A DNA stretch of 64,000 nt from Gammaproteobacteria bacterium (GCA_965221695.1 OZ244905.1:3136001-3200000), one strand, 5' to 3'. Positions 44,206-61,870 are shown, counted from the stretch's first letter. Translations and numbers: made by a program. The notes: generated by a model from the sequence alone, not told the origin.

Positions 44206-45027
44206 TCACCTGGCCGTATTGAGCAATACCATGATTTCGCCCTTGCCGTCGTTAGCAAGGTCGCCGGTATAAAGGCGTACTTCCGGGCCGAAATTGCGAA
44301 AGAACCGGTAGCGGCTTCCCATCAGCGACAATTGCTTGAAAAACAGTCGCAGGTATTCCATCTTCAACGCGCCGCAGTCTGTCAGGGTGGCGCCGATCCG
44401 GCTTGGCCGCCTGCCCAGGATGATACTCCCGCGCTTCATCCCGTAGCCGGGCAGCTTGCCGGCTTTGCCCAGGATCAATATCGTGCCGGCAACCATACCG
44501 GAGCCGCTGAAATCGCCCGCATCACCGCCGATCATGATCATGCCGCGCCGCATCCTGTCGCCGATACGGTTTCCGGCATTGCCCCAGACCGTGATCAGAC
44601 CGTCCCGCATCCCGTAAGCGCCGGTGGATGTGCCGGCCCCGATGTAATCGCCGGCGTCACCCTCCACGTCAATCCGGCCCCACTCCATATCACAGCCCAG
44701 CCACTCGCCGCAACTGCCGTTGACTTTGATTGCGCCGCCGCGCATACCGTGGCCGAGATGGCTGCCGCCATGGGCCTTGACGTCGATCTGCCCGCGGGTC
44801 ATCTGCGCGCCTATCCGGGTTACCAGTTCCGTGGTGCGGCGTAACTCGATATGTTCGGGATTTTCCCCGCTGATGGAAAACAGGTCGCCGACCCGGGCGG
44901 GCCGAGCGCCATAGGTGAGTTCGATATCGGCAATATTGTCCGCCGCCGACAGCCGGTCCGGTGTCAGCGCCGACAAGTCCAGCAGCCGCTGAGGTTTTTT
45001 CTTCAGGGTGAAGATCAAGGGTTTCAC
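44206..45027 (-). CDS. fhcC: Formyltransferase/hydrolase complex subunit C
   Basis: LD...L.PD, GxxM.xG.I.V.G beta-helix repeats, GDRMRRG, GDLA..GKGEI. Confidence 0.9.
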   Translation of the reverse strand: MKPLIFTLKKKPQRLLDLSALTPDRLSAADNIADIELTYGARPARVGDLFSISGENPEHIELRRTTELVTRIGAQMTRGQIDVKAHGGSHLGHGMRGGAIKVNGSCGEWLGCDMEWGRIDVEGDAGDYIGAGTSTGAYGMRDGLITVWGNAGNRIGDRMRRGMIMIGGDAGDFSGSGMVAGTILILGKAGKLPGYGMKRGSIILGRRPSRIGATLTDCGALKMEYLRLFFKQLSLMGSRYRFFRNFGPEVRLYTGDLANDGKGEIMVLLNTAR

Positions 45028-45920
45028 CGTAAAATGTCCCTCAGGTGAAAATGGTAAGGTCCCAATTTGCCGCCGTAATTGCCAGCGCCGACTCGATAGA
45101 TGCCCTTGTCGGGTCCGTTTTCGCAGACCGCTTCGATGCCTGCGCGCATGGCCTCGCTGATCGCGCCTTCGCTGAGGCCATCAATGACGATCTCCAGCAC
45201 GGAACCGATCTCTTCGGTGAGCTCACTGTTTACCCGGCCTTTCAGGGTTGGGCAGAACAACTCGTTGGTCGATGCCGGCAAAAACGAGTACTTGGATCCC
45301 ACCTTGGAGCCGGACCCGACGATGCCGCCGGGGAACGTGGTGACTGCGCCTTCCACTGCTCTGATGGCTTTTACCGCTTTTTCACAAGCATTCAGGCCGT
45401 GGCGGGAGGTTTTGGCCATTACCAGGAAGTTGCCGCCACCAATGGCGGGGACCACGCCGGTGGTCTCTTCACACAGGAATTCGCCATGCATCACCGGGAT
45501 GCGCCAGTAGCGGATGCCGCGCAGTATCTTTGAGATCTGGTAACCGTCGCCGAAATATCTCAGGCTTTTGCCCAGGGGCAACATGGTGTCGCTGTGGGTG
45601 CCGGCAAAACAGGCGCTGGTCGCGGTGGTCATTACCGACTGCCCGACGCGCCGGGTAAGCTGGTCCGCCAACTGGGATTTGGACATCGCAAACATGATGA
45701 TCGCCACACCGGGCCTGCCGTCAGGGGTTTCATCCGGCCTGAGCTCCCGTTCGATGTCCGCCTCGCAACCGCAGGCGATCACGGACGAGGCGAAACCGGT
45801 CAGCGAGTTGGCTGCGATATAGGCATACTTCATCGTCATGGCGGTAATGATCAGCCGCGTTGCCTTCATAGGGAAGGCCTCGGCAAAAGTATCATCAATG
45901 CTTACACCGTTAATATTCAT
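45024..45920 (-). CDS. fhcD: Formylmethanofuran:H4MPT formyltransferase (Fhc copy)
   Basis: DTFAEAF, GFA.SVI.CGCEA, TPDGRPG, LRYFGDG, GSKVGSKY, GNYGGKLG. Confidence 0.93.
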   Translation of the reverse strand: MNINGVSIDDTFAEAFPMKATRLIITAMTMKYAYIAANSLTGFASSVIACGCEADIERELRPDETPDGRPGVAIIMFAMSKSQLADQLTRRVGQSVMTTATSACFAGTHSDTMLPLGKSLRYFGDGYQISKILRGIRYWRIPVMHGEFLCEETTGVVPAIGGGNFLVMAKTSRHGLNACEKAVKAIRAVEGAVTTFPGGIVGSGSKVGSKYSFLPASTNELFCPTLKGRVNSELTEEIGSVLEIVIDGLSEGAISEAMRAGIEAVCENGPDKGIYRVGAGNYGGKLGPYHFHLRDILR

Positions 45921-45953
45921 GTTAAGGTATTCTCTGTGACCTCTGTGGCTATG

Positions 45954-47603
45954 TTACTTGCAATCATGTACCAGCAGTGAATGTTGATTACAGGCTTCCA
46001 GCTCGTCTCGGCCGATCTTGAAATTCTCCAGGCTCATGGTCATGTACCTGTCAAAATACTGTTTAAGCGGTTTCTCAATGCCCGCGTCGTAGTCCGGTTC
46101 GACCACGTGAGTGGAGGTGGCCGGGATGGCGCAGACTTTACCGTCCCTGACGCAGAGTTCGCCGCGCTTGAATACGTATTCCGGTCTGCTGAACATGGTC
46201 TCGCGGTTGGCGTCGGGTTGGTACACGGTGATATCCGCGGTGGCGCCGATGCCCAGGTGGCCCAGGTCCCTGAGCCCCAGGCTTCTTGCCGGCGCGGCGC
46301 GGGTGATAATCGCGATCTCGTACAAGGAATATTCCCGGTCGATCGAGGACAGGATGCTGGCATCGGCTGCGTCCTTGTTTATCGTGCCCAGCATGTCGTC
46401 GCGAAAACCCTTGTCCATCAGCAGCCTGACCAGGTGCGGGTAAAAGGTAAACGGCGCGCCGTTAGGGTGGTCGGTGGTCATGAACACGCGCCAGGGATCA
46501 TCGACGAGCAGGAATATTTCGAGGCCGATGCACCACTGCAACGCGTTGACAAAATTCTTGTCCCGGTAACGGAACGGCACAACACCGCAGCCTGCCTCGC
46601 ATTCAATGTCCATGCACATCCATTTTTTCGGATGGGCATGAACATGCCCCTTATGCTGTATCATCGTGTCCGCCGACGCGGTGACCGTCTGGCCGAACAT
46701 GACCTGGCCGACATCTATCGACAAGTTTGCGTTCCTGTTCACTGCCTCCGCTACCTGCGCGGCCGCGGACGAGAATTTTCTGTCGCCCTCCTGCCCGTAG
46801 CTGTGGAATTGCACGTGGGTCAGGTGCACCGGTCTGCCCTCGGCCGCAGCAATGGTATCGAGTGTTGTCCGGAAATTGCCGGGCACGCCCAGGTTGCAGG
46901 CATGCACATGCAGGGGATGGGGTACGCCGGTAGCATCCAGCGCATCCAGCAATGCGGACAGAATCGCCCGCGGCGTCAGTCCGTAATGTTTGTTGGATTC
47001 ATCCAGGTCCAGTTTTCTCTGGTTGAACTTGAACGCGCTGATCCCACCCGGATTGACCACCTTGACTCCCATCGCCCGGGTTGCCTGTATGGTCCAGGCC
47101 ACGTAATCGTTAACAAGCTGCCGGTCCTTATTGCGTTCAAGCAGGCGCAACAGGAAGTCATCATTACCCAGCAGAACATAGGCGCCCGTGTCCAGCATGG
47201 GCGTATCGGCCATTTCCAGGTGCGAGTGACGGGCGTTCATCGGCATCATCGCCGGTTCGAAACAAGAGGTATAACCCATTTCGGCATAGCGGTAGCCGGT
47301 GACGAAACTGCTTGGGGCGATAGCGCCAGATCCCGAACGCAACAGCTTGTCCGATGCGGTGATATTATTGCTGTGGTCATCCGCCAGCAACATCCTGGCG
47401 ATGTTGACCTTGCCGCCGCCGATATGGGTGTGGATATCGATACCGCCCGGCATGACGATGCGTCCGTCCAGGTCCACCACGCGGTCGATCCTGCTTGCGC
47501 GCGCCGGATCGGCGAGCCTGCCGTCCTTGATATACAAGTCCATGATGCTGCCGTCTATCCCGTTTGTCGGGTCGTAGACCTTGCCGCCTTCGAGCTTGAT
47601 CAT
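45954..47603 (-). CDS. fhcA: Formyltransferase/hydrolase complex subunit A (amidohydrolase)
   Basis: DIHTH, KVVNPGG, HVH, THVQFHSYG, TTDHPNG; ATG 47603 overlaps the fhcB stop. Confidence 0.92.
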   Translation of the reverse strand: MIKLEGGKVYDPTNGIDGSIMDLYIKDGRLADPARASRIDRVVDLDGRIVMPGGIDIHTHIGGGKVNIARMLLADDHSNNITASDKLLRSGSGAIAPSSFVTGYRYAEMGYTSCFEPAMMPMNARHSHLEMADTPMLDTGAYVLLGNDDFLLRLLERNKDRQLVNDYVAWTIQATRAMGVKVVNPGGISAFKFNQRKLDLDESNKHYGLTPRAILSALLDALDATGVPHPLHVHACNLGVPGNFRTTLDTIAAAEGRPVHLTHVQFHSYGQEGDRKFSSAAAQVAEAVNRNANLSIDVGQVMFGQTVTASADTMIQHKGHVHAHPKKWMCMDIECEAGCGVVPFRYRDKNFVNALQWCIGLEIFLLVDDPWRVFMTTDHPNGAPFTFYPHLVRLLMDKGFRDDMLGTINKDAADASILSSIDREYSLYEIAIITRAAPARSLGLRDLGHLGIGATADITVYQPDANRETMFSRPEYVFKRGELCVRDGKVCAIPATSTHVVEPDYDAGIEKPLKQYFDRYMTMSLENFKIGRDELEACNQHSLLVHDCK

Positions 47604-48835
47604 CCGGGTTGGTCCGTGAGTTGTGAGATGATGCGGTTGATGATCCCGGCGGCGCTCTGCGAACCGGAATCTCTGAGCTTTTTCAGGGGCAGGCTGATGA
47701 CTCCGTCCGTCCGGAACAGCGTGCCGGCATGATCGATGCCCGGGATGCCTGTCGGAATGAAAACGTCGGCGCTGTTCGCGCCGGCACGAAACGGGGATAG
47801 AATCACGGTTGGGACGCCCAGGGATGGAGGCGCTTCCTCGGTAAACCCCGATATCCACAACAAGCTGTCTATGTCCGCCGTGTGTGCGCCGGCGCCGGAC
47901 GGACGTCCATCGTTGAAATTCAGCGCCGCCGGGAAGCCGGTCTGCCAGGTGGCGACGCTGTGCCAGGCTGCGCCGCCATTGCTGCCGCCCAAGGATAAAC
48001 CGGCAAATCGTTGTTTTGCGTTCAGGTCGCGCAACAAGTCCTGCGCCGAACCGATGACCAGGTCGGCCTGGTCCGCCGGGAGGGCTGCCGCGTTCCATAC
48101 CAGTACGCCGTATTGTGCGTCTCTGACCAGGTCGGCAACCTGTTCCAACTTACGCGCTTTTGGTGCGGATATAGGACTGCAATCCGGCAGTTGCCGGCCG
48201 GTCAGTCGGGCGCGCAGCAGCGCCAGGTTTTCGGCAACCTCATCGTTGCGGCCGGAAATGATGAGGCGCTCATGGCCGTCGCAGCCAGCCAGTTCAGTCC
48301 GCCCCGGCCGGCCCAGGTAGGCCAGTTTTCTGCCGGCCGCAGCAAACAGCGAATGGGGTGTGTTGATGAAGCGCTCGATGAACCGGGGATAAGCGCCGGT
48401 CACGTTATTACCGATAAAGATAATCGTGTCCGCCCGATTTTTTACTTCGGCGAGAGTGGTCGTGATCCCGCCCCGGGACTGCAGCGCTTTCAGGTTACGC
48501 CAGGCATGACCTTCAGTGGAATGGCGTAGCGCGGCATCTGTCTTTTCGGCCAGTTGCAATGCTGCGCGCAAGCCGTTAACGTCTGTGCCAAGACCCGCAA
48601 TCAGCGGTTTATGGGACTTATGCAGGAGTTTTGCCGCGGCGCTGATGGCCCGTTCCACGGTCGCCGGCGCGCCTTTTATGGCCGCTTCAGGCATCGGCAG
48701 CGGGGCGGAAAAGCCCTGCTTGGCAAGTCGGCACGCATTCGCGGAGACCCTGAGTTGCCGCCTCTTTGTGCGCAGCGTCAGGTCATCGCATAACAGGCTG
48801 CAAAACGGGCAGGTTACATTTACTGCTGCTTGCAT
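47600..48835 (-). CDS. fhcB: Formyltransferase/hydrolase complex subunit B (no Mo/W Cys ligand)
   Basis: CPFCSLLCDD, TTLAEVKNRAD, WQTGFP, PGIDHAG..FR.DGV; no Cys where FwdB has SVCHG. Confidence 0.88.
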   Translation of the reverse strand: MQAAVNVTCPFCSLLCDDLTLRTKRRQLRVSANACRLAKQGFSAPLPMPEAAIKGAPATVERAISAAAKLLHKSHKPLIAGLGTDVNGLRAALQLAEKTDAALRHSTEGHAWRNLKALQSRGGITTTLAEVKNRADTIIFIGNNVTGAYPRFIERFINTPHSLFAAAGRKLAYLGRPGRTELAGCDGHERLIISGRNDEVAENLALLRARLTGRQLPDCSPISAPKARKLEQVADLVRDAQYGVLVWNAAALPADQADLVIGSAQDLLRDLNAKQRFAGLSLGGSNGGAAWHSVATWQTGFPAALNFNDGRPSGAGAHTADIDSLLWISGFTEEAPPSLGVPTVILSPFRAGANSADVFIPTGIPGIDHAGTLFRTDGVISLPLKKLRDSGSQSAAGIINRIISQLTDQPG

Positions 48836-50199
48836 CAATCCAGCAAGGCCAACATTTCGCTGACACGGGTGTACTTCTCCCTGGGTTTGCCCGCGGATTC
48901 GCCTCGGGCAATCTCGGTATCATCGATTTTTTTCCAGTCTGTAAAGCTGATGTGGCGGATATTGCGCCGGTCGAGAAGTTCGTAGCAGGCTTCAGCGCCG
49001 CGCCGCTGTTTACCGTCGTCCAGCCGGTCCAGGTCTTGCAGCAGCATCCCTACTGTTTCCACGCTGTCTGCCTTGTTGGTGCCGATGATGCCGGTGGGGC
49101 CGCGCTTGATCCACCCGGCGGTGTACAATCCCGGTTCCACCGTTCCGTCCCTGGTGATCCTGCCTTGATCATTGGAGAAAACCCCGCGGGATTCGTCGAA
49201 CGGCACGCCGGGCATGGGCACGCCGTGGTAGCCGATACTGCGAAAGACAATGCCGGTATCCAAGGTAAATGTTTCTCCGCTACCTCTTGCCGATTGCCGA
49301 AACGCCTCTCCCGATAAGCTGTTTTTTTCTATCAGCAAGCGTTCCACCTTGCCATCGCCGAGTATTTCTCTGGGGCTCTTCAGGAAAGTGAAAATACAGC
49401 GCCTGTCCTTGGCTGTCTCCCGGTCGGCAAATCCGCAGAACAGGTCATAGATTTTTTTGTTGCCGGTATTTCCCAGTTCAGCTTCGCTTTCCGGGTTCAG
49501 CGCCAGTTCGCCCGCGTCTATCACCGGGTCACAGGTGTCCAGGACACCGAATTCCTTCAGCTCCTTGGACGTGAACTTGGCTTGCGCCGGCCCGCGGCGG
49601 CCAATGACGTAGATATTTTTTACCTTGCTCTCGGCCAGCGCTTCCAGTGCATGTGCAGCGATATCCGTATGCTTCAATTCATCAACGGTCTTGGCCAGGA
49701 TCCGGCTCACGTCGGCGGCCACGTTGCCCTGGCCGATTATGACGGCGGTTTCATGGGACAGGTCAAACTGCCTGTCGCGATAATCGGGATGGCCGTTATA
49801 CCAGCCGACAAATTCCGTTGCCGTGTAACTGCCCTGCAGGTCTTCACCGGGGATGCCCAGGCGTCGGTCGGTTTCAGCCCCGCAGGTAAGAATCACCGCG
49901 TGGTGGGCGGCGCGCAATTCGTCAATGCTGATGTCCTTGCCCGCAGTCACGTTTCCGAGATAGTTGAATTGTTCCGCCTCGGCAAGCCTGGCGTAGACCT
50001 TGATAGCCTGTTTCAGTTTCGGGTGATCGGGCGCAACGCCGCTTCTTACCAGGCCATATGGTACAGGCAAGCGTTCGAACATGTTGATGCGGACCTGGAT
50101 ATCGGCTTTGATCAGCGCGTCAACCGCGTAAAATCCACTGGGGCCGCTACCGACGATAGCGACTGTCAGCGGATTGTCTGGTGTTCCTAATCGAGTCAT
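48835..50199 (-). CDS. Ferredoxin-NADP+ reductase (FprA/adrenodoxin-reductase family)
   Basis: GSGPSG, GL.R.GVAPDH, WYNGHP, GQGNVA.D, GRRGP.QAKFT.KEL, GWIKRGPTG.IGTN. Confidence 0.92.
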   Translation of the reverse strand: MTRLGTPDNPLTVAIVGSGPSGFYAVDALIKADIQVRINMFERLPVPYGLVRSGVAPDHPKLKQAIKVYARLAEAEQFNYLGNVTAGKDISIDELRAAHHAVILTCGAETDRRLGIPGEDLQGSYTATEFVGWYNGHPDYRDRQFDLSHETAVIIGQGNVAADVSRILAKTVDELKHTDIAAHALEALAESKVKNIYVIGRRGPAQAKFTSKELKEFGVLDTCDPVIDAGELALNPESEAELGNTGNKKIYDLFCGFADRETAKDRRCIFTFLKSPREILGDGKVERLLIEKNSLSGEAFRQSARGSGETFTLDTGIVFRSIGYHGVPMPGVPFDESRGVFSNDQGRITRDGTVEPGLYTAGWIKRGPTGIIGTNKADSVETVGMLLQDLDRLDDGKQRRGAEACYELLDRRNIRHISFTDWKKIDDTEIARGESAGKPREKYTRVSEMLALLD

Positions 50200-50324
50200 G
50201 ATGCACCCAGTTGGTAAAAAAAGAGAAATATATCCCGAACGCCCGACGCCGCGCAGTCCGGGGCCGTTCGAAGATGAACCGAGGAGAACCTATTGCAATT
50301 CACAGGTTCCCTGATGTAATTTAA

Positions 50325-50474
50325 CGAAGCTCTGACAAGTCCATCCTGGACTTGTCAGAGCACGCAAAACAAAAATGCGATTTTTGTTTTGCCCTCAAAT
50401 TCAATGACTTATCGTCATCGAATTTGGCGATACATCCCTGTATCGCAGGAACCTCTGACTTAATCAGAGGTTCT
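50325..50474. mobile_element. Full-length family A MITE-like element (~150 bp)
   Basis: TTAA|cgaagctctga...tcagaggttct|TTAA; left half near-identical to 57907-57975; several internal hairpins. Confidence 0.7.
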
Positions 50475-50496
50475 TTAATTTCAGGCTGGTATTTAT

Positions 50497-50802
50497 TCAA
50501 AAGCCCAGGGCAGCTTTCCTTTCGTCCGCGCCGGGCAACGGGTCCATGGTATCGGTGATGACCGGCAATACCTTGGAACGTTCTGCATTGATTTCTATCC
50601 ACTCATGCTTGTCTTCCGGCAGGTCATCTTCTTCGTAGATGGCCTCGACCGGGCATTCCGGGAGGCATGCGCTGCAGTCGATGCAGACCTCCGGATCGAT
50701 GTACAGCATCTGATCATCGTAATGGAAGCATTCCACCGGGCAGACCGCGACGCAGTCGGTATAACGGCAGTCTTTACAGTTGTCGGTAACGATTGTTGTC
50801 AT
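50497..50802 (-). CDS. 7Fe ([3Fe-4S][4Fe-4S]) ferredoxin, FdxA type
   Basis: VTDNC..C.YTDCV.VCPV.CF and I.P..CIDC..C.PECP as in Azotobacter ferredoxin I; AGGAG RBS. Confidence 0.9.
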   Translation of the reverse strand: MTTIVTDNCKDCRYTDCVAVCPVECFHYDDQMLYIDPEVCIDCSACLPECPVEAIYEEDDLPEDKHEWIEINAERSKVLPVITDTMDPLPGADERKAALGF

Positions 50803-50951
50803 GATTATCTCCTGTTTAGCCCGGATTTCTTACCAGACTGCTTAATATTGAAGGAAACCTGCTTTTCTGCTTATCGTCAATGAGGTAAATCTTATTAGCA
50901 TGTCGCCGCTACACACTGCGCACGATGCGCTGTTGCGCGATATTACCCGTT

Positions 50952-51761
50952 TTATCCTGCATATAATAGTATTTCTCCCCGGTTCATCTCAACACTGTCG
51001 CCGCAATAGCGTTTGTACGAACCCTGCAGGTATTCTTCGGCGCTTGCGAATACCCGGGACAGGCGCAACAGGTACAGCGTCATGTAGCCCGGCCGGTAAG
51101 TGCATGAATAGCTGAACGTGGGCAGTAACGGCGCATCTTTCATACTGATGATGGAACCCCGTTTCATCCCTGCGCCGGTGCGGATGCCGAGTTCCCCGAA
51201 TACGAAAATACTGCCGGAGAGCATGTTGACGCCGGTGAAGTCGCCGCTGTTGCCGGCGACGGCGATTAGCCCGTTACGCATTGCGTTGCCGGTCTCGTTG
51301 CGAACATTGCCGTGAATGATGATTTCCCCGCCGGTCATTCCCATGCTTGCGCCCCGGTAAGCGCTGCCGACCAGGTGACCGGCATTGCCGCGGATTTCAA
51401 TTCTTCCTCCGGACATCTCCGGCCCGACCCAGTCGGCGGCATTGCCGTCGATGAGGATTTCGCCGCCGCTCATGGCAGCGCCCAGGTGTTCGCCGACATC
51501 GCCTTCGACCCGGATCGTCCCCTGTGACATGCCGGCGCCGATGAATTTCGCCCGCTCCAGGTGATCACCTTGCAGTTCAATGGTTCCGTCATAGCTGCCG
51601 GCAACATTGAAAAAATCGCCGATTACCCGGCGTTCGCTGCCGTGCATCACCACCAGTTTCTCCACGCCCGCCGCATCCTGGCCGATAAGCCGGGCAGGAG
51701 TGATGTTGTCTGCCTCTATGGGCACATCCGGCGCGGCAACCTGTTTCAGTATTAAGGGCAT
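50952..51761 (-). CDS. fwdC: Formylmethanofuran dehydrogenase subunit C
   Basis: VP.EA..I.P, IGA.M..G, GSAYRG...GM.GG, GAGMKRG beta-helix repeats. Confidence 0.88.
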   Translation of the reverse strand: MPLILKQVAAPDVPIEADNITPARLIGQDAAGVEKLVVMHGSERRVIGDFFNVAGSYDGTIELQGDHLERAKFIGAGMSQGTIRVEGDVGEHLGAAMSGGEILIDGNAADWVGPEMSGGRIEIRGNAGHLVGSAYRGASMGMTGGEIIIHGNVRNETGNAMRNGLIAVAGNSGDFTGVNMLSGSIFVFGELGIRTGAGMKRGSIISMKDAPLLPTFSYSCTYRPGYMTLYLLRLSRVFASAEEYLQGSYKRYCGDSVEMNRGEILLYAG

Positions 51762-51842
51762 GTCAGAAATCCGTACGAGGCACTAAGTAACTTCTGATTA
51801 ACTCAGCGGTTACTACGATACAAGGATGTTTCCCTGATTTCA

Positions 51843-52730
51843 TCATTTCAGGTCAAGGTCATGCAGGTTGATCCTGTATTGTCCGAGATTGCCGCCGTAA
51901 TTTCCCGCGGAGACCTGCCTGATGCCGGGTTTTGCCGCGGCCCGTATCCCTGCGGCCATGGCCAGTCTGACTGCATTCTCGGTGAGGCCGTCGATCACGA
52001 TTTCCAGCGCGCAATTGACATCCGCCGGCAGGCTGCTGCCGGTCACGGCCTTCAACGTCGGACAGTAGGCGTCGTTGGTGGATGCGGGCAGGGTCTTGTA
52101 GCGTGATCCCACCTTGCTGCCGCTGCGCACGACGCCATTGGGAAACGGCAGGATGATATCGCTGATGGTCCCCATCGCCCGGGTTGCGGCGCCGGCCGCG
52201 GCCAGGGTTTTCTTCTCGTTCGTGCCCAGTATGATGATATTGCCGCCGCCCACCGATTTCTGCACGGCGAACGATTCTTCCACGGTGAATTCACCGTCCA
52301 TGACCGGGATGCGCCAGAAACGCCGCTCCCCCAGCTTCTTGCTGCCCTGGAAGCCGTCGCCGAAATAACGCAGTTGGGAACCGACCTGGACCGTTTCGCC
52401 GGCATCAAGGCCATTGAAACAGGCCGTTGTCGGGCAGGTCATCACGCATTGGCCGATGCGCTCCACCAGGCGTTTCCCTACCGATGCCTTGTCCATCGCG
52501 AATAACAGGATGCTGGCGCCGGGACGGCGGTCCGGCGTCTCATCCGCGGACAGAAATCGTTCAATGCCGGCCTCGCACTTGCAGCCGATCACCGATGTCG
52601 CAAAGCCGGTCATCGATCGCGCCGCAGCCTCGCTCCATTGCCGGGTGGCTGCGGTGACGATCACCCGCGCCCCCCACATGCTGAATGCCTCGGCAAAGGT
52701 ATCGACGATTTCCGTGGATTTTATCTTCAT
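51843..52730 (-). CDS. ftr: Formylmethanofuran:H4MPT formyltransferase (Fwd-associated copy)
   Basis: DTFAEAF, TGFATSVIGC.CEAG, RIGQCVMTCPT, RSGSKVGS, GNYGG.LG. Confidence 0.92.
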   Translation of the reverse strand: MKIKSTEIVDTFAEAFSMWGARVIVTAATRQWSEAAARSMTGFATSVIGCKCEAGIERFLSADETPDRRPGASILLFAMDKASVGKRLVERIGQCVMTCPTTACFNGLDAGETVQVGSQLRYFGDGFQGSKKLGERRFWRIPVMDGEFTVEESFAVQKSVGGGNIIILGTNEKKTLAAAGAATRAMGTISDIILPFPNGVVRSGSKVGSRYKTLPASTNDAYCPTLKAVTGSSLPADVNCALEIVIDGLTENAVRLAMAAGIRAAAKPGIRQVSAGNYGGNLGQYRINLHDLDLK

Positions 52731-54364
52731 ACCGTGGCGACCACTTCGTGATCATGCAGGTAGCTGTCATCGACTGCATAATTGGGGAACTCAATGGAGT
52801 AATAGTTCTCGAAGAACGGTCTTACCGTGGTGATGATGGATTCATCATAGCCAGGTTCGGTGTGCAGGAACTTCCCGTAAAAATCCCGGCAAAATTCATG
52901 GTTATCGATGATCTGGACGCCGGATTTGATCACGTAGCGGGGCGCGTTGAACATCGCTTCCTTGTCGGCCATCTCATCATAGATAGTGATGTCCGCATCG
53001 GCGCCCGGACCCAGGTGGCCCTTGTTGGTCAGGTTCAGGGCGCGCGCCGGACCGGCGCGGGTGATAATCGCTATCTCATTGAGCGTGTATTCACGGTCCA
53101 GCTCATTCAGTATCGTGCCGTTAATGGCCTTCTGGTTCACGCGCTTGATCTCTTCCTTGCGAAATTCCCTGTCCATCAGCAAGCGGATCAGCTTCGGGTA
53201 GCTCAGGAAGGAACCGCCGTTCGGGTGATCCGTGGACAGGACGATGCGCCAGGGGTCTTTTGACAGCAGGAACAGCTCCAGGCCGATGGCCCATTGCAGC
53301 GCATGGACGTAAATATGTTCCTGGTAGCTGAAGGGCATGATGCCGCAGCCGCTTTCACACTCCGTATCGGCGTTTACCCATTTTCCTTTCTTGAAGCCCC
53401 TGAGCATGTAGGCCAGTGGCGCGTCCGCGGTCATGATCGTCGCCTTGCCGAACATGACCTGGCCGACATCACAGGAGATATTCGGATGGTCATTGATGTA
53501 TTCGGCAATTTCCCTGGATGCCGATTTGGGATTCTTACCGAGTTCGCCCGCGTAGCTGTGAAACTGTATGTGGGCCAGGTGCGCGCGCCGGTCACCGGCG
53601 GTTTTCATCGTCTCCAGGGTTGTCTTGTAGTTGCCGCTGTGTCCCAGGTTGTTGCAGTGTATGTGCGGCGGATGGGGCAGGCCCAGCTCATTGACCGTTT
53701 CGACAAACGCATCGATCACCTGTCGCGGGGACACTTCGATGACATCGCTTTCCTCATCTATGTCCTTGACGTTGGAATTCTTCTTGCCTTTCCAGGGCTC
53801 GTCTCCGCCGGGGTTGACCAGCTTGGTCGTATAAGCCTTGGTTGCGTTGACCCACCAGGCAACGGCATGGCGAAATTCCTCTTTGCGCCCTTCCTTGATT
53901 AGCTGCTGCAGGAAGATATTATTGCCCAGCAGCACGTAAAAACCTTTGTCGATGACCGGTGTATCATGCAGTTCCTCGATGGTATGCCTGGCGCCGATAG
54001 GGGTGACGGCCGCCTCCATCGCGGTGGTGTAACCCAGGGTCGCATAGCGGTACCCGGTGGCAAACGTGGAAGGGACGGTGCCGCCCGCGCCCGAGCGGGT
54101 GTGTTCCGTTCCGGGATGCGGGTCGCGGCGGTGATCTTCGGGTTGCAGCTTCCTGGCCAGGTTTACCTTGGGGCCGGCGATGTGGCAGTGGATGTCCACG
54201 CCGCCGGGCATGACGACCATGCCGCTTACGTCAATTTTTCTGGGTGTGGAGGAGGGTGTTTCCACCATGCGTCCCTGTTCCAGGTAGAGGTCTCTTATTT
54301 CCCCGTCAATACCGTTTGCCGGGTCATACACCTTGCCCCCCGCAAGTAGAATGCAATCCGTCAT
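52727..54364 (-). CDS. fwdA: Formylmethanofuran dehydrogenase subunit A
   Basis: DIHCHIAGPKVN.AR, TGYRYA.LGYTT, KLVNPGG, HIHCNNLG, STDHPNGG. Confidence 0.9.
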   Translation of the reverse strand: MTDCILLAGGKVYDPANGIDGEIRDLYLEQGRMVETPSSTPRKIDVSGMVVMPGGVDIHCHIAGPKVNLARKLQPEDHRRDPHPGTEHTRSGAGGTVPSTFATGYRYATLGYTTAMEAAVTPIGARHTIEELHDTPVIDKGFYVLLGNNIFLQQLIKEGRKEEFRHAVAWWVNATKAYTTKLVNPGGDEPWKGKKNSNVKDIDEESDVIEVSPRQVIDAFVETVNELGLPHPPHIHCNNLGHSGNYKTTLETMKTAGDRRAHLAHIQFHSYAGELGKNPKSASREIAEYINDHPNISCDVGQVMFGKATIMTADAPLAYMLRGFKKGKWVNADTECESGCGIMPFSYQEHIYVHALQWAIGLELFLLSKDPWRIVLSTDHPNGGSFLSYPKLIRLLMDREFRKEEIKRVNQKAINGTILNELDREYTLNEIAIITRAGPARALNLTNKGHLGPGADADITIYDEMADKEAMFNAPRYVIKSGVQIIDNHEFCRDFYGKFLHTEPGYDESIITTVRPFFENYYSIEFPNYAVDDSYLHDHEVVATV

Positions 54365-54403
54365 TATTATCTGCCTTCCATCAACTATTTCAGCCTGCGC
54401 CGG

Positions 54404-55768
54404 TTACTGCATCGGCGCGGCAGCGCGCGCAACGCCACTTGCCCCGCCGGCCTGGCCGCGGGCCAGAACCAACTCGCGCACGCGTTTTCTGATCGCGGTC
54501 AGTATTTCCTCATCGGTGGGAAAAGGTGAATCGAAGGCCTTGCGCAACGTGATCGGCACATCGTCCATCCGGTATACGGTGCCGGCAGTATTGATGCCGT
54601 AGGTGCTGGTCCGGAATGCCACGTGCGCCAGCTTGCTGGTGTGGGTTGCCTTGGTATCCAGGCATATGACCGGGATCTTTGCCAGGTGGTCGATAGCCGC
54701 CTGGGGGAAATTGGATGCAGGGTCCGTGGCGATGATCAGCGCGGCATCAACATCCCGCTTCGACAGCAAGTCCACGGTGGTGAATTCTCCCGGGTTGAAA
54801 CGGGGGAAGCCGCGGCTGAAGTTGACACCGAACGGATAGCCGGTCTGCCAGGACATCACGTTGTCGGCCCCGGTGACGTTGCCGTGGCCACGTACCGGCT
54901 TGGCGACGAAATGGGTGTATTCATTCAGGTCCGTGGCCAGCGCAAGCAGCGCGCCCGAATTGAAATGCCGGCCCCGGGTCATGGTCAGGCCCATGCCGAA
55001 AAACAATACGCCGTAACGGCAGTTTTTCATTCGGTCCACCAGCTCCTCCATGGTTTCCAGGCTGACACCGGTCTGTTCTTCTATATCCGGGTCTATCTTG
55101 CGGTTCTTCACCAGCGCCCGCAACGCCCACAGCACTTCAAAGTCTTTTCCCGGCTTTACCTGGATAAACTGGCTGGCCGCCGGCGCGCTGGGAGTCCTGC
55201 GCACATCCACCAGGACCACGTGGCGATCTTTTTTGCCCCTTGGGGTGAACATCCCCTTGGCGGTGACCGCATAGCGGCCGAAGTGGCGCGGGTGCGACTC
55301 GGCAGGATTGCCGCCCCAGTAAATGACCAGGTCGGCGCGGTTCTTCACTTCACCTAAAGTCATCGTGCTTTCGCCGACTCCCTGGAGCGCGATGCCGGAC
55401 GGACCATGGCAGACCGAAGTCGTGGTGTCGATGTTTCCCCTGATGGTATCGGTAATGGCGACAGCCTGGCGCTGCGCCTCGCAGGTCGTGTCGCTGAGAC
55501 CGTAGGTAATCGGGAACCTGGCATTGACCAGGGTCCTGGCCGCTTCTTCCACTGCCTCTTCCACGGCGACAGGCCGGTTATCTATCATCGCGGCCGGCGC
55601 GTCTTCTTCGATATAGTGTTCGGCAAACCAGGCCCGGCCCAGGACGCAGGCATTTTTTGCCTTGGTAATCCGTTTTTCATCCATATCCACGGTCAGTATC
55701 ATGTCGTCACAGACACAGCCGCAGAATGTGCAAGTGGCATTTTCTACAACTTTTACGTTTTCACTCAT
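54404..55768 (-). CDS. fwdB: Formylmethanofuran dehydrogenase subunit B (Mo/W-bis-PGD catalytic subunit)
   Basis: CTFCGCVCDD...C [4Fe-4S] motif, TTSVCHGPS (Mo/W Cys plus His), TLGEVKNRAD, HPRH, RGHGNV, GT.YRMD.V. Confidence 0.9.
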   Translation of the reverse strand: MSENVKVVENATCTFCGCVCDDMILTVDMDEKRITKAKNACVLGRAWFAEHYIEEDAPAAMIDNRPVAVEEAVEEAARTLVNARFPITYGLSDTTCEAQRQAVAITDTIRGNIDTTTSVCHGPSGIALQGVGESTMTLGEVKNRADLVIYWGGNPAESHPRHFGRYAVTAKGMFTPRGKKDRHVVLVDVRRTPSAPAASQFIQVKPGKDFEVLWALRALVKNRKIDPDIEEQTGVSLETMEELVDRMKNCRYGVLFFGMGLTMTRGRHFNSGALLALATDLNEYTHFVAKPVRGHGNVTGADNVMSWQTGYPFGVNFSRGFPRFNPGEFTTVDLLSKRDVDAALIIATDPASNFPQAAIDHLAKIPVICLDTKATHTSKLAHVAFRTSTYGINTAGTVYRMDDVPITLRKAFDSPFPTDEEILTAIRKRVRELVLARGQAGGASGVARAAAPMQ

Positions 55769-55858
55769 GATTGCTCCTCATGGGGTCAGACCGGCCCGGA
55801 TAGCGCTTTGGCCTACGCAAAATCAAGGTTAAGAAACCTCTGTCGATTATTAAGCATT

Positions 55859-56203
55859 CTAACTGATTTTTTCCACCTGGACAGAAATATGTTTGGACAG
55901 CGGCATGCCACTGCCAGCGGTGTCACTTTCCATCAGGCGGCTGGATGTGGGGCCGTAGGCAATGAAAATCATGCCTTCAGGCAGGTCGCCGGCTTTTTTT
56001 GAGACGCAGGTAACAACAACTTCTCCCACATGGTTTTTCAGCCGCAGTTTATCGCCATTGCTGAAACCGAGGCGAGCCATCTCGTCCGCATTGATTTCAA
56101 CGGTAGAAGTAACCTCCCGGTACTCGTCACCCAGTTTTCCCTTGTTTAGGGAGGTCCCCTGTTTACTGGACCGCCCGGGTATCAATAACATGGTTTCCGG
56201 CAT
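55859..56203 (-). CDS. fwdD: Formylmethanofuran dehydrogenase subunit D (molybdopterin dinucleotide-binding)
   Basis: L..GR...QG.....GK...Y, G.IFI.YGP....L...T.G.GMP..K; directly upstream of fwdB. Confidence 0.85.
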   Translation of the reverse strand: MPETMLLIPGRSSKQGTSLNKGKLGDEYREVTSTVEINADEMARLGFSNGDKLRLKNHVGEVVVTCVSKKAGDLPEGMIFIAYGPTSSRLMESDTAGSGMPLSKHISVQVEKIS

Positions 56204-56376: not shown

Positions 56377-56551
56377 TCTTGGGAAATAAGTAGTTCCCGA
56401 CGCTGTCCATGTGCGTGATGCATGAGGGACACGCACCCCCGAGGAAATAACTGACCGATTTATGGCACTTGCCCCACATAGGTAGTGTCGGGATTCAACC
56501 TTCTGCAATTTTCCTCTGAGGAGATATTCGGGTTAGAATATTTCCGTGCTT

Positions 56552-57544
56552 ATGAGGACGATACGAAATGATCATGCCGCTGCTGAAACGGTGAGGGTTG
56601 CTGCGCCGGCGCGGCTGCACCTGGGTTTCCTGGACCTGAACGGCGGCGACGAACGGCGTTTTGGCAGTATCGGTGTCGGTATTACCGGTTTTTCCACCGT
56701 GATCAGCGTCAGCCATAGCGAGCGGTTGGATATCAACGGCGCGCAGGATGAATATATCGCTGCCATTGCGCAAACCGTTCTGGATTGCTTTCACATCACG
56801 TCCGGTGTCAGGATACAGGTTGAAGAACACATTCCCAGGCACCAGGGCCTGGGCTCAGGCACACAGATGGCATTGGCGCTGGGCGCCGCGATAACCCGCC
56901 TGTATGGCATTGATGCCGGTGTTGACGACATCGCGCTGGCAACGGGCAGGGGCAGACGCTCCGGGGTCGGACTGGGTGTGTTCAGACACGGTGGTTTCAT
57001 CCTTGACAGCGGCAGGTCTGAAGGCCGTAGTTTACCGACGGTGGTTTTTCGCCATGCCATACCGGAACCATGGCGGTTTGTCCTGGTTATGGATACCCGG
57101 GACCAGGGGGTCAGTGGAACGGATGAAGTCGACGCGTTCAAATCACTGCCGGATATGGACCCCGGAGTTTGTGCGCAGATTTGTCAGCAGGTGTTGATGC
57201 AGATGTTGCCGGCCATCATTGAACAGGATTGCCGCCGCTTCGGCGCGGCCGCCAGCAGTATTCAGGCCAGTATCGGTGACTATTTCAGCAGCGTGCAGGG
57301 CGGGGCGTATGCCAATGAAAATGTCAGACAGGCGCTGGAACTGTTGCTGGAGCGTGATGCGGCCGGCGCTGGCCAGACCTCCTGGGGGCCGACCGGTTTT
57401 GCCGTGTTCCCGGATGAACAATCAGCGCGCCGGGCAGTGAATGATCTCGCGGCGCAGGATAACGGGTTAAGCTTCGTGCTTGCCGCGGCGGAGAATAACC
57501 CGGCACAGGTCCGCAAATCGCGACAAACAAGCGGGCTGACATAA
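56552..57544 (+). CDS. mptG: Beta-ribofuranosylaminobenzene 5'-phosphate synthase
   Basis: PARLHLGFLDL, IPRH.GLGSGTQ (GHMP), GRG.RSG.G, GQTSWGPTGF. Confidence 0.92.
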   Translation: MRTIRNDHAAAETVRVAAPARLHLGFLDLNGGDERRFGSIGVGITGFSTVISVSHSERLDINGAQDEYIAAIAQTVLDCFHITSGVRIQVEEHIPRHQGLGSGTQMALALGAAITRLYGIDAGVDDIALATGRGRRSGVGLGVFRHGGFILDSGRSEGRSLPTVVFRHAIPEPWRFVLVMDTRDQGVSGTDEVDAFKSLPDMDPGVCAQICQQVLMQMLPAIIEQDCRRFGAAASSIQASIGDYFSSVQGGAYANENVRQALELLLERDAAGAGQTSWGPTGFAVFPDEQSARRAVNDLAAQDNGLSFVLAAAENNPAQVRKSRQTSGLT

Positions 57545-59619: not shown

Positions 59620-59901
59620 CTAAATGGTCAAGCCAGGAGAAGCCGCCATCAAGCGATGAAACCAATCGCTTTCAAACCAGCTTACTGATATACTGCGGTC
59701 ATGACACCAGTAACTTATAAGACTTTCGCGACCGGAATTGCGCTGGCTGCAGGGCCTTCCGCGTTGTAATCCGACGCAGCCCGCCACTTCCAACCGCCAA
59801 GACCAGGCAGCCTGACAGCGCCCGTTCCACATCAAACCCGGGATAGAATTAACTAGAGGTTTCTTAACGCTATGAATACGAATTTTGCGACTGCGAGGGA
59901 C

Positions 59902-60897: not shown

Positions 60898-60912
60898 TCC
60901 GCCAATCCGGGT

Positions 60913-61755: not shown

Positions 61756-61870
61756 GTTACGGGTTGTAACTGTTGGTGTGGGGAGTAGTGATAGACCTTA
61801 CGGAGGTATCATGTTTAAAATATTTGACAAACTTTGTAGCATTTTTAAATCAGAAGAAGGAGGTAATGAA

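What the first reader, a model, noticed from the sequence alone, without database searches (positions are those of the whole stretch)
48835..56203. Methanogen-like redox-active Fwd complex co-encoded with a ferredoxin and a ferredoxin-NADP reductase in a proteobacterial methylotroph
Seen: the co-directional run fwdD-fwdB-fwdA-ftr-fwdC-fdx-FNR. FwdB keeps the [4Fe-4S] motif (CxxCxxxC...C), the Mo/W-ligating Cys-His (TSVCHG) and RGHxNV, and a separate pterin-binding FwdD is present. Established: the characterised methylotroph Fhc (Methylorubrum extorquens) lacks the Mo/W cofactor and only hydrolyses the formyl carrier to formate, while archaeal Fwd interconverts formyl-methanofuran and CO2 at low potential through FwdF/G ferredoxin-like subunits. 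No fwdF/G is in this window. Inference: a 7Fe FdxA-type ferredoxin plus an FprA-type FNR replace them, forming formyl-carrier -> CO2 + reduced ferredoxin -> NADPH (or the reverse). Fwd-like genes do occur in some other bacteria, so the candidate novelty is the dedicated Fd/FNR wiring.
Basis: partly seen in the sequence, partly recalled or inferred. Interest (0 to 1): 0.9.

Follow-up and report, generated by a model that had tools for sequence, protein, structure and literature searches.

The report
Bacterial Fwd operon beside ferredoxin pair
An uncultured gammaproteobacterium carries a methanogen-type formylmethanofuran dehydrogenase operon next to a ferredoxin and its NADPH reductase, but relatives that lack this enzyme keep the same redox pair, so it is a plausible partner and not a dedicated one.

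Summary
Window 48835-56203 (minus strand) encodes fwdD-fwdB-fwdA-ftr-fwdC, a 7Fe FdxA-type ferredoxin and an FprA/adrenodoxin-reductase-type FNR. A second, Fhc-type set (fhcBADC, 44206-48838) follows directly. FwdB keeps the four [4Fe-4S] cysteines, Cys120-His121 and Arg293. FwdD is present. The genome has MobA, ModA and other molybdoenzymes, and no polyferredoxin.

Of 65 informative related loci, 64 carry fdx+fnr beside fwd. When fhc lies elsewhere, the pair stays with fwd. A survey of the whole order (one family, 126 genomes) shows that the pair is not dedicated to Fwd:
- It is present in 12 of 17 genomes with no Fwd/Fhc B subunit. Five of these, 98-100% complete, were checked and also lack Ftr and the A subunit.
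- It is kept under purifying selection in two sister species that deleted fwdDBA-ftr-C.
- Eight of the 99 Fwd-bearing genomes lack the FNR ortholog; three loci examined keep fdx without fnr.
- One has neither gene.
- The locus backbone is nrdAB-[C1 genes]-fdx-fnr-[fhc/FDH]-waaA.

Best reading: a probably active bacterial Fwd that most likely hands its electrons to this shared ferredoxin. This is inferred and untested. A bacterial fwdDBA-ftr-fwdC operon without fwdFG is already in print for Actinobacteria.

The parts
55859..56203 (-). fwdD, the pterin-capping 'fourth domain' subunit (114 aa)
   Evidence: NF042908 FwdD E 3.6e-22 and Pfam PF01568. PDB FwdD chains 2ki8_A E 2.4e-17 and 5t5i_D E 3.8e-13.
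54404..55768 (-). fwdB, Mo/W-bisPGD catalytic subunit with an N-terminal [4Fe-4S] domain (454 aa)
   Evidence: TIGR03129, 512 bits. PDB FwdB chains E 1e-111 to 5e-117, against 2e-11 for M. extorquens FhcB 6s6y_B. C13/C16/C20/C41, C120-H121 and R293 are invariant in 80-81 of 81 relatives.
52727..54364 (-). fwdA, amidohydrolase subunit (545 aa)
   Evidence: TIGR03121, 695 bits; Pfam Amidohydro_3. 45% identical to the fhcA copy.
51843..52730 (-). ftr, formylmethanofuran:H4MPT formyltransferase inside the fwd operon (295 aa)
   Evidence: TIGR03119, 417 bits; Pfam FTR + FTR_C. 50% identical to fhcD.
50952..51761 (-). fwdC (269 aa)
   Evidence: TIGR03122, 250 bits; Pfam GXGXG.
50963..50992 (-). Promoter-like site (TTGAGA-18-TATTAT) inside the last codons of fwdC, upstream of fdx
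   Evidence: 10 of 12 consensus matches. The same 38 bases are all that is left of fwdC in the two species that deleted fwd. The site overlaps a conserved FwdC C-terminal motif, so promoter function is an inference.
50497..50802 (-). fdx, 7Fe FdxA/FdI-type ferredoxin (101 aa)
   Evidence: PDB A. vinelandii ferredoxin I, E 2e-32. All nine cysteines are invariant in 67 of 67 sequences. It is a paralogue of a second FdxA at genome C1:4363-4650, 53% identical.
50320..50480 (.). Copy of a multi-copy intergenic repeat of about 155 nt that widens the fdx-fnr spacer
   Evidence: The 298-nt spacer gives 169 blastn matches in the genome. The top matches listed are 92-97% identical, and up to 135 matches cover spacer positions about 121-280.
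48835..50199 (-). FprA/adrenodoxin-reductase-type NADPH:ferredoxin reductase (454 aa)
   Evidence: PDB 1lqt FprA, E 1.4e-111, full length. GSGPSG, GQGNVA and GRRGP are invariant in 61 of 61 sequences. It is the only orthologue in the genome.
47600..48838 (-). fhcB, Cys-less B subunit (scaffold type) that still has the four N-terminal cysteines
   Evidence: TIGR03129, 242 bits, below the cut-off of 328. His and Ala replace Cys120-His121. Its start overlaps the FNR stop.
45954..47603 (-). fhcA
   Evidence: TIGR03121, 749 bits from residue 167 of the long frame. The ATG at 47603 overlaps the fhcB stop as ATGA.
45024..45920 (-). fhcD (second formyltransferase)
   Evidence: TIGR03119, 423 bits.
44206..45027 (-). 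fhcC
   Evidence: TIGR03122, 229 bits.
56546..57544 (+). mptG-like beta-RFAP synthase (H4MPT biosynthesis), divergent from fwdD
   Evidence: TIGR00144, 145 bits. It is conserved next to fwdD in most related loci.
59872..62383 (+). mch, a citG-like orf and fae (H4MPT-linked formaldehyde oxidation)
   Evidence: TIGR03120, 392 bits; TIGR03126, 248 bits.

Best explanation
The run consists of two formyl-methanofuran (methylofuran) modules stacked around a ferredoxin/reductase pair.

fwdDBA-ftr-fwdC encodes an archaeal-type, Cys-ligated Mo/W-bisPGD formylmethanofuran dehydrogenase with its own formyltransferase. The sequence requisites are shown. That it is active and oxidises the carrier-bound formyl group to CO2 is inferred.

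FwdB has a single [4Fe-4S] exit cluster and the genome has no FwdF/G. The electrons must therefore leave to a soluble carrier. The neighbouring 7Fe ferredoxin is the most likely acceptor, and the FprA-type reductase can pass the electrons on to NADP+. Both steps are inferred.

The fdx-fnr pair is not a dedicated Fwd accessory. It is a backbone element of this locus across the family (nrdAB-[C1 genes]-fdx-fnr-[fhc / NAD-FDH]-waaA). Relatives that lost Fwd, or the whole methanopterin pathway, keep it intact, so it has at least one other job. Fwd can also occur without the FNR.
For: Fwd is of the redox type:
- FwdB matches solved archaeal FwdB chains at E 1e-111 to 5e-117, against 2e-11 for M. 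extorquens FhcB.
- Cys120-His121 align to Cys118-His119 of 5t5i_B.
- These residues, Arg293 and the four cluster cysteines are kept in 80-81 of 81 relatives.
- FwdD is present.
- MobA, ModA and an FDH alpha subunit are in the genome.

Fwd is probably used:
- G009 (97% complete) has FwdB as its only B subunit.
- FwdB was also the only B-subunit match in G453 (97% complete), G481 (74% complete) and 6 of the 7 genomes of a small-genome genus (1.0-1.5 Mb).

No polyferredoxin: no frame in the genome has more than two CxxCxxCxxxC motifs.

Link to fdx/fnr:
- 64 of 65 informative loci carry the pair. The median spacing between tblastn hits is 58 bases for fwdC to fdx and 57 bases for fdx to fnr.
- The pair stays with fwd in 8 loci where fhc is not adjacent.
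- fdx stays after fwdC in 3 loci that have lost fnr.
- The FNR orthologue was found in none of the 13 genomes of other families in the class that lack a FwdB-type match. It was found in none of 4 Fhc-only genomes of other families in the phylum.
- The island fdx is a paralogue of a second FdxA.

Fdx and FNR as a pair:
- FprA-type fold and NADP motifs.
- In the three fnr-less loci the Fdx shares one distinct set of changes around residues 56-66.

Energetics:
- The CO2/formyl-MFR couple is about -0.53 V (passage in PMC11656701).
- The [3Fe-4S] potential of about -0.42 V in the A. vinelandii protein and NADP+ at -0.32 V are recalled, not taken from a call.

Against: There is no direct evidence for any electron transfer.

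- The pair is kept in 12 of 17 genomes with no B subunit. It is kept under purifying selection after a shared deletion of fwd in G005/G010. Its main constraint therefore need not come from Fwd.
- G470 (96% complete, one contig) has Fwd and Fhc with neither the island fdx nor the FNR.
- Eight of 99 Fwd-bearing genomes lack the FNR orthologue. Four of these eight are 74-83% complete.
- In this genome the FNR stop overlaps the fhcB start, and a promoter-like site precedes fdx. So fdx-fnr may be transcribed with fhc and not with fwd.
- Seven metagenomic loci with more distant FwdB (43-57% identical) show no fdx, fnr or CxxCxxCxxxC frame in the flanks held.
- The 80 surveyed loci are close kin (FwdB at least 77% identical), so 64 of 65 is largely one inheritance.
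- The metal ligands of FwdA were not inspected.
Confidence: 0.5

Rival explanations
1. Neighbourhood by locus history only. fdx-fnr is a general-purpose NADPH-driven ferredoxin system of this family. One possible role is keeping the class Ia ribonucleotide reductase cofactor or other Fe-S/radical enzymes reduced. The C1 genes accumulated on both sides of it, and Fwd uses some other carrier.
For: - The pair is present in 108 (FNR) and 112 (Fdx) of 126 genomes, whether or not Fwd is present.
- In 4 genomes of one Fwd-less genus the order is nrdA-nrdB-fdx-fnr with waaA facing them.
- In the window's genome nrdAB lies at C1:3202434-3206702 and waaA at 3170083-3171414, with the C1 genes in between.
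- Purifying selection continues after the loss of fwd.
- G470 has Fwd without the pair.
Against: - Five Fhc-only genomes, 99-100% complete, lack the pair altogether, so it is not essential housekeeping.
- A second FdxA exists in the window's genome.
- Outside the families that hold Fwd, the FNR orthologue was not found.
- fdx remains directly after fwdC even where fnr is lost.
- The gap between nrdB and fdx is about 0.9 kb, and the adjacency was seen in one genus only.
- The ribonucleotide-reductase role is my analogy with E. coli YfaE, recalled and not tested.
Confidence: 0.3
2. The pair serves the Mo/W formate-type enzymes of the locus in general (Fwd and the NAD-linked FdsGB-FdsA formate dehydrogenase). 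It could act as a side acceptor or for reductive reactivation. It is not specific to Fwd.
For: - fdsGB-fdsA follows fnr directly in G465, G472, G501, L045, L078 and L098.
- It precedes fdx in L105.
- It follows fhcC in G529, G474, G496, L013, L015 and L024; in G485 the part of fdsGB held follows fhcC.
- Two genomes that lack both B subunits, G465 and G472, keep fdx-fnr-fdsGB-fdsA.
Against: - Four genomes of one genus and G469 keep the pair with no formate dehydrogenase within 10 kb.
- In the window's genome fdsGB-fdsA lies 1.66 Mb away.
- This type of formate dehydrogenase has its own NuoEF-like NAD module and needs no ferredoxin (family matches).
Confidence: 0.08
3. The Fwd set is catalytically silent or a scaffold, like Fhc, and the conserved motifs are relics.
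For: - The clade's own FhcB shows that cluster cysteines can outlive catalysis: 54-56 of 57 keep them without Cys-His.
- One relative (G518) has FwdB split over two frames.
Against: - Cys120, His121, Arg293 and His295 are invariant in 81 of 81 sequences.
- FwdD is retained.
- G009 has no FhcB by family search, and in eight further genomes FwdB was the only B-subunit match.
Confidence: 0.07
4. Reverse direction. NADPH reduces ferredoxin through the FNR, and Fwd fixes CO2 onto the carrier.
For: Archaeal Fwd works in this direction (passage in PMC11656701).
Against: The reaction runs uphill by about 0.2 V from NADPH (-0.32 V, recalled) to the -0.53 V couple. No bifurcating module was seen in the locus. 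The context is formaldehyde oxidation (fae, mch, XoxF).
Confidence: 0.03

Closest known systems
Tungsten formylmethanofuran dehydrogenase FwdABCDFG of Methanothermobacter wolfeii (PDB 5T5I)
   Same: The B, D, A and C subunits match at E 1.8e-111 (B) and 3.8e-13 (D). Cys118/His119 equivalents, the four [4Fe-4S] cysteines and Arg are conserved.
   Different: There is no FwdF polyferredoxin and no FwdG. A formyltransferase gene sits inside the operon. The host is a gammaproteobacterium with XoxF, fae and mch, so oxidation is the likely direction (inferred).
Formyltransferase/hydrolase complex FhcABCD of Methylorubrum extorquens (PDB 6S6Y; PMC6926001, passages read)
   Same: The second set in the window (fhcBADC) has a B subunit without the catalytic Cys-His and no FwdD. 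Both sets include a formyltransferase.
   Different: The first set keeps everything that paper lists as lost in FhcB: the Cys, the His, the Arg, FwdD and the N-terminal cluster domain. Even the window's FhcB keeps the four N-terminal cysteines, which the paper says M. extorquens FhcB lacks.
fwdDBA-ftr-fwdC operon without fwdE/F/G in Hakuba actinobacterial single-cell genomes (PMC7325909, passages read)
   Same: Same gene order. FwdB has the N-terminal [4Fe-4S] domain and the catalytic Cys118. There are no fwdFG.
   Different: Different phylum and metabolic setting (Wood-Ljungdahl there, H4MPT-linked formaldehyde oxidation here). The passages I read name no ferredoxin or FNR neighbour. Their Supplementary Figure S4 was not seen.
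F420-coupled Fmd of 'Candidatus Ethanoperedens thermophilum' (PMC11656701 passages; PMC11493965, search listing only)
   Same: It is a precedent that the electron-transfer module of this enzyme is exchangeable and that it can run in the oxidative direction.
   Different: There, a bound F420 reductase is the module. Here, a free 7Fe ferredoxin is proposed, and it is untested.
Mycobacterium tuberculosis FprA (PDB 1LQT) and Azotobacter vinelandii 7Fe ferredoxin I
   Same: The FNR matches FprA at E 1.4e-111 over its full length. The ferredoxin matches FdI at E 2e-32 with the same cysteine pattern. That FprA reduces a mycobacterial 7Fe ferredoxin is recalled, not taken from a call.
   Different: Here the two genes are adjacent and lie between C1-oxidation operons. 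Their physiological partners are unknown.

Membership tests
Redox-active formylmethanofuran dehydrogenase (Fwd/Fmd) | B subunit with Cys/Sec ligand, neighbouring His, and the conserved Arg | tested here: met
   C120-H121 align to C118-H119 of 5t5i_B; R293GHGNV is present. Invariant in 81 of 81 relatives.
Redox-active formylmethanofuran dehydrogenase (Fwd/Fmd) | N-terminal [4Fe-4S] domain with four cysteines in FwdB | tested here: met
   C13, C16, C20 and C41, kept in 80 of 81 relatives; the one exception is a gap.
Redox-active formylmethanofuran dehydrogenase (Fwd/Fmd) | FwdD capping domain | tested here: met
   NF042908 E 3.6e-22, at 78.8 bits, below that model's cut-off of 175. Pfam PF01568 is above its cut-off. 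PDB FwdD chains E 2e-17 to 5e-8.
Redox-active formylmethanofuran dehydrogenase (Fwd/Fmd) | FwdA amidohydrolase and FwdC subunits | tested here: met
   TIGR03121, 695 bits; TIGR03122, 250 bits; both above their cut-offs. The metal ligands of FwdA were not inspected.
Redox-active formylmethanofuran dehydrogenase (Fwd/Fmd) | Polyferredoxin FwdF and ferredoxin FwdG as the electron wire (archaeal complexes) | tested here: not met
   No frame in the genome has more than two CxxCxxCxxxC motifs, and none of the six two-motif frames lies in the window. The island Fdx matches FwdG only at E 8.5e-4.
Redox-active formylmethanofuran dehydrogenase (Fwd/Fmd) | Supply of the bis-guanine-dinucleotide pterin cofactor and the metal | tested here: met
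   MobA at 244 bits and ModA at 139 bits, both above their cut-offs, plus several other MopB enzymes. A tungstate transporter was not searched for.
Redox-active formylmethanofuran dehydrogenase (Fwd/Fmd) | Mo/W content and formyl-MFR:acceptor oxidoreductase activity | not testable with these tools
   This needs purification and assay.
Formyltransferase/hydrolase complex (Fhc), second set | B subunit without the Cys-His-Arg triad and without FwdD | tested here: met
   His/Ala replace Cys-His in the window. Across 57 FhcB sequences none has Cys at the ligand position, His at the next position, or Arg at the position of R293.
Formyltransferase/hydrolase complex (Fhc), second set | Loss of the N-terminal [4Fe-4S] domain (as described for M. 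extorquens FhcB) | tested here: not met
   The four cysteines are kept in 54-56 of 57 FhcB sequences of this clade.
7Fe FdxA / ferredoxin I | Cysteine pattern CxxCxxxxCxxxCP...CxxCxxCxxxCP and overall likeness | tested here: met
   The pattern is read. PDB FdI E 2e-32. NF045490 scores 121.5 bits, just under its cut-off of 135.
FprA / adrenodoxin-reductase-type FNR | Full-length likeness, FAD and NADP(H) glycine motifs, Arg-Arg at the 2'-phosphate site | tested here: met
   1lqt E 1.4e-111, residues 10-451. GSGPSG, GQGNVA and GRRGP in 61 of 61 sequences. The role of the Arg pair is recalled.
   64 of 65 informative loci.
   Present in 12 of 17 genomes without a B subunit and in 5 of 10 Fhc-only genomes. 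Absent (FNR) from 8 of 99 Fwd genomes.
   See Tried and rejected.

The most novel reading that the evidence does not exclude
In an uncultured, widespread family of Gammaproteobacteria, a methanogen-type Fwd complex with a built-in formyltransferase oxidises the carrier-bound formyl group directly to CO2. It does so without a polyferredoxin. It delivers low-potential electrons to a free 7Fe ferredoxin, and an FprA-type reductase turns these into NADPH. This would be a ferredoxin-linked, formate-free end to methanopterin-dependent C1 oxidation, and in some lineages it has replaced Fhc altogether.
Probability: 0.35. Interest if true: 0.7.

Novelty: new member of a known kind. Interest (0 to 1): 0.45.

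Why it matters
A 2016 opinion article (PMC5020050, passage read) stated that fwdD is not present in Proteobacteria. Bacterial methylotrophy is taught as ending in Fhc plus formate dehydrogenase.

In this family, 99 of 126 genomes carry a complete Cys-type fwdDBA-ftr-fwdC. FwdB was the only B-subunit match in nine of them; for one (G009) a family search confirmed that FhcB is missing. If the enzyme is active, formyl groups can go to CO2 without free formate, and the electrons leave at about -0.5 V. That changes redox budgets in models of these uncultured, partly sponge- and sediment-associated bacteria. It would also offer an Fwd from a bacterium with aerobic C1 genes, with a simple soluble acceptor, for CO2-conversion work.

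The survey also carries a caution. Very strong synteny (64 of 65 loci) did not mean dedication.

Tried and rejected
1. Structure prediction of FwdB with the ferredoxin (collected; alignments A3 and A2). The verdict was 'no answer': score 0.29 against a mark of 0.32, and the controls were not run. I take it as no evidence either way.

2. Expression. No RNA holder was listed for window 48000-56300, only contig-level holders of unrecorded library kind. I did not lay reads, because contigs cannot show transcripts. This is no evidence on co-transcription.

3. My first phyletic reading, 'FNR occurs only where FwdB does', came from 41 relatives. I rejected it after the order-wide survey.

4. More distant Fwd clusters as an independent test. 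I scanned metagenome contigs with the closest outgroup representative, P0006, and got 10 loci, 7 of them with a clear FwdB. None shows fdx, fnr or a ferredoxin motif. The flanks are short for several, and the taxonomy is unknown.

5. A possible selenocysteine in the FwdB of G490, which was flagged '1 TGA'. No stop lies within the aligned FwdB, so I dropped it.

6. The 1658-aa frame between fwd and fhc in G470, considered as an alternative redox module. It has no Pfam match and may not be a gene.

7. The phylum-wide even sample gave only 6 of 401 genomes with any B homologue. That is too sparse to use.

8. A labelled phylogeny of the B/A/C copies was not made. The 150 representatives carry no taxonomy, and PDB sequences cannot be pulled into an alignment. 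I relied on scores instead: FwdB against archaeal FwdB chains at E about 1e-111 or better, against 30% identity to its own FhcB.

9. Literature. I found no paper linking Fwd to an FprA-type reductase or FdxA. The library lacks most subscription journals. Supplements are closed, and I did not ask for any. The supplementary tables of PMC10100899 (which bacteria hold FwdB), Figure S4 of PMC7325909 and the SI of PMC6926001 could bear on the novelty claim.

Full report
**What is there**

The window is G000:C1:3136001-3200000 of a 3.54-Mb single-contig genome with 55% G+C. Record titles of near-identical loci call it an uncultured Gammaproteobacteria MAG.

On the minus strand, 56203 to 44206 holds eleven co-directional genes:
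- fwdD, fwdB, fwdA, ftr, fwdC;
- a 101-aa ferredoxin;
- a 454-aa flavoprotein;
- fhcB, fhcA, fhcD, fhcC.

Divergent from fwdD are an mptG-like gene, mch, a citG-like orf and fae. Beyond fhcC lie xoxJ, a pseudoazurin-like gene, a XoxF-type PQQ dehydrogenase and a SoxYZ-like carrier.

**The first set is of the dehydrogenase type**

FwdB scores 512 bits on TIGR03129 (cut-off 328). It matches solved archaeal FwdB chains at E 4.7e-117 to 1.8e-111, but M. extorquens FhcB only at 2.1e-11.

In the printed alignment, TSVC120H121G lies on ASVC118H119G of 5t5i_B, and R293GHGNV lies on its RGHYNV. These are the residues that the Fhc structure paper names as catalytic in FwdB and lost in FhcB (PMC6926001, passages).

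C13, C16, C20, C41, C120, H121, R293 and H295 are kept in 80-81 of 81 sequences from related loci. FwdD matches FwdD chains.

The genome has MobA, ModA, an FDH alpha subunit above its cut-off and other MopB enzymes.

The second B copy (FhcB) scores 242 bits and has His-Ala in place of Cys-His. The paired copies are 30% (B), 45% (A), 50% (Ftr/FhcD) and 32% (C) identical, so they are not a recent duplication.

**The redox pair**

The ferredoxin has the 7Fe pattern. It matches A. vinelandii ferredoxin I at E 2e-32 and FwdG only at 8.5e-4.

The flavoprotein matches M. tuberculosis FprA at E 1.4e-111 and bovine adrenodoxin reductase at 1.4e-101, over its full length. GSGPSG, GQGNVA and GRRGP are invariant in 61 of 61 relatives.

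The genome has a second FdxA, 53% identical, at C1:4363-4650. It has no second FprA-type gene. No frame has more than two CxxCxxCxxxC motifs, so there is no FwdF.

**Synteny near and far**

I fetched fourteen regions from relatives and 80 loci from genome contigs (FwdB 77-100% identical).

Of the 80 loci:
- 70 reach fwdC;
- 64 have fdx and fnr;
- 2 have fdx and end 19-54 bases later;
- 3 end within 6 bases of fwdC;
- 1 (L102) has 929 further bases with mch and no fdx.

That gives 64 of 65 informative loci. Median hit-to-hit spacings are 58 and 57 bases.

In seven loci, at least 3.3 kb follows fnr without fhc. In L105 the pair lies upstream of fwdD. In all eight the pair is with fwd. In four of them an NAD-type formate dehydrogenase (a NuoEF-like fusion plus FdhA) adjoins the pair.

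These loci are close kin, so the count is not 64 independent events.

**The test that changed the reading**

The order holds one family, 126 genomes including the window's. I searched it with FwdB, the FNR and the ferredoxin.

I classified genomes as follows:
- FwdB-type: best E at most 1e-70.
- FNR orthologue: at least 53% identity in the listed pieces. This excludes a 42% hit in G470.
- Island ferredoxin: at least 69% identity. This excludes a 56% hit in G466.

| Genome class | n | FNR present | Fdx present |
|---|---|---|---|
| FwdB-type | 99 | 91 | 95 |
| FhcB only | 10 | 5 | 5 |
| No B subunit | 17 | 12 | 12 |

- Among the FhcB-only genomes, G005, G010, G448, G478 and G524 have both genes. 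G023, G466, G494, G495 and G496 have neither and are 99-100% complete.
- The five genomes with no B subunit and no pair are 59-80% complete.
- Five genomes with no B subunit, 98-100% complete, also have no Ftr and no A subunit by family search. The control genomes of methanogens did ring in those searches.
- In nine such genomes the two genes are adjacent, full-length and open, with all motifs.

**Losses are uncoupled in both directions**

Fwd lost, pair kept. G005 and G010 are each other's nearest relatives (dS 0.23-0.38, against more than 0.9 to others). They lack fwdD to fwdC, and their deletions end at the same base (within one), 38 bases before the fwdC stop. That points to one ancestral event. 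Since then fdx (dN/dS 0.09) and fnr (0.15) have evolved like fhcA (0.09) and fhcD (0.15).

FNR lost, Fwd kept. G485, G529 and G474 have fwdDBA-ftr-C-fdx-fhcBADC with no fnr anywhere in the genome. Their ferredoxins share a distinct set of changes, including a one-residue deletion near residue 57.

Both lost, Fwd kept. G470 has Fwd and Fhc but neither gene of the pair.

**Locus history**

In four genomes of one Fwd-less genus the order is nrdA-nrdB-fdx-fnr, with waaA facing them.

In the window's genome nrdAB lie at 3202434-3206702 and waaA at 3170083-3171414. Between nrdB and fdx sit fae, mch, mptG and fwd. Between fnr and waaA sit fhc and the xox cluster.

So fdx-fnr is the constant element, and the C1 genes sit on both sides of it.

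At a wider scale the pair and Fwd share a range. The FNR orthologue was found in none of the 13 genomes of other families in the class that lack a FwdB-type match, and in none of 4 Fhc-only genomes elsewhere in the phylum. Two of the three Fwd-bearing genomes of other families in the class have it. The third (G034) is 75% complete and its contig ends in fwdC.

**Transcription hints in the window**

- The FNR stop (TGA, 48837-48835) overlaps the fhcB ATG (48835-48833). The fhcB stop overlaps the fhcA start as ATGA.
- The 298-base fdx-fnr spacer holds a copy of a repeat of about 155 nt. Up to 135 matches elsewhere in the genome cover that part of the spacer.
- A promoter-like site (10 of 12 consensus matches) lies in the last codons of fwdC. 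It is the only part of fwdC retained in G005 and G010. It also overlaps a conserved protein motif.
- No terminator-like site falls between fwdC and fnr on the minus strand.

Whether fdx-fnr are read with fwd, with fhc or alone is open.

**How it most likely works**

Shown: a complete Cys-type Fwd with its own Ftr, no polyferredoxin, cofactor supply, and genomes in which Fwd was the only B-subunit match (G009, confirmed by family search; G453, G481 and 6 of the 7 genomes of a small-genome genus).

Inferred:
- The enzyme oxidises formyl-methylofuran to CO2.
- The single exit cluster hands electrons to a soluble ferredoxin.
- The neighbouring 7Fe ferredoxin is the best candidate.
- FprA-type FNR then reduces NADP+.

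The couple is about -0.53 V (PMC11656701, passage). The ferredoxin and NADP+ potentials are recalled.

The pair must also serve something else, because it outlives the pathway.

I put the whole reading at 0.5, pure neighbourhood by history at 0.3, and the remaining rivals at 0.18 together.

**Comparison with what is known**

- The operon fwdDBA-ftr-fwdC without fwdE/F/G, with Cys118 and the cluster domain, is described for actinobacterial single-cell genomes (PMC7325909, passages).
- A 2023 survey counted 149 bacterial FwdB homologues and ascribed them to transfer from Archaea (PMC10100899, passages).
- A 2016 opinion article stated that fwdD is not present in Proteobacteria (PMC5020050, passage). 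This family is an exception.
- Exchange of the electron module has a precedent in an F420-coupled archaeal enzyme.
- I found nothing in print that links Fwd with FdxA or FprA. Supplements were not seen.

**Verdict**

This is a new, proteobacterial member of a described bacterial Fwd operon type, of moderate interest.

Noticed in passing
window 47600-48838 (fhcB) and related loci: FhcB of this clade keeps the four N-terminal [4Fe-4S] cysteines (54-56 of 57 sequences) although it has lost Cys-His-Arg. M. extorquens FhcB is described as lacking that domain. The two sequences printed that lack some of the cysteines (G023, G028) come from genomes that also lack fdx-fnr.
   Followed up: partly
window about 50320-50480: A repeat of about 155 nt lies between fdx and fnr. 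Up to 135 matches elsewhere in the genome cover it, and the top matches listed are 92-97% identical. It explains the unusually long spacer in this genome.
   Followed up: partly
window 59255-59623: The 122-codon frame here is not a gene but part of another multi-copy repeat (151 blastn matches in the genome). Pieces of it also turn up in intergenic spots of the cluster in relatives.
   Followed up: partly
G009, G453, G481, G500-G506; L018, L129: In nine genomes FwdB was the only B-subunit match. They include 6 of the 7 genomes of one genus of 1.0-1.5 Mb. For G009 a family search confirmed that FhcB is missing. In G501 the order is fwdDBA-ftr-C-fdx-fnr-fdsGB-fdsA.
   Followed up: partly
L125, L126, L127 (G485, G529, G474): A cluster variant has fdx but no fnr. 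Its ferredoxins, from three genera, share the same substitutions and a one-residue deletion. This suggests a distinct subtype or an exchange of the cluster.
   Followed up: partly
L120-L123 (G460, G456, G457, G463); G000:C1:3202434-3206702: Class Ia ribonucleotide reductase genes nrdAB lie directly upstream of fdx-fnr in a Fwd-less genus, and upstream of the whole C1 island in the window's genome. By recalled analogy with E. coli nrdAB-yfaE, the pair might serve NrdB.
   Followed up: no
L022:2595-8866 (G005): Between fdx and fnr sits a 7.5-kb insert with a type I restriction-modification hsdM gene that is split by an IS1634-family transposase.
   Followed up: partly
L133 (G518:C1:1022900-1024500): FwdB is split over two frames near residue 199 in a 97%-complete single-contig genome. 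This is either a pseudogene or an assembly indel.
   Followed up: partly
window 38417-43241: A XoxF-type PQQ dehydrogenase lies with a quinoprotein-associated SoxYZ-like carrier, a pseudoazurin-like protein and a MoxJ-like binding protein, next to the fhc genes.
   Followed up: no
L098, L045, L078, L105, L118, L130: An NAD-type formate dehydrogenase (a NuoE-NuoF fusion plus FdhA, 717-771 bits on TIGR01591 in the three scored) adjoins fdx-fnr in several lineages. In the window's genome the same genes lie at C1:1521112-1525504.
   Followed up: partly
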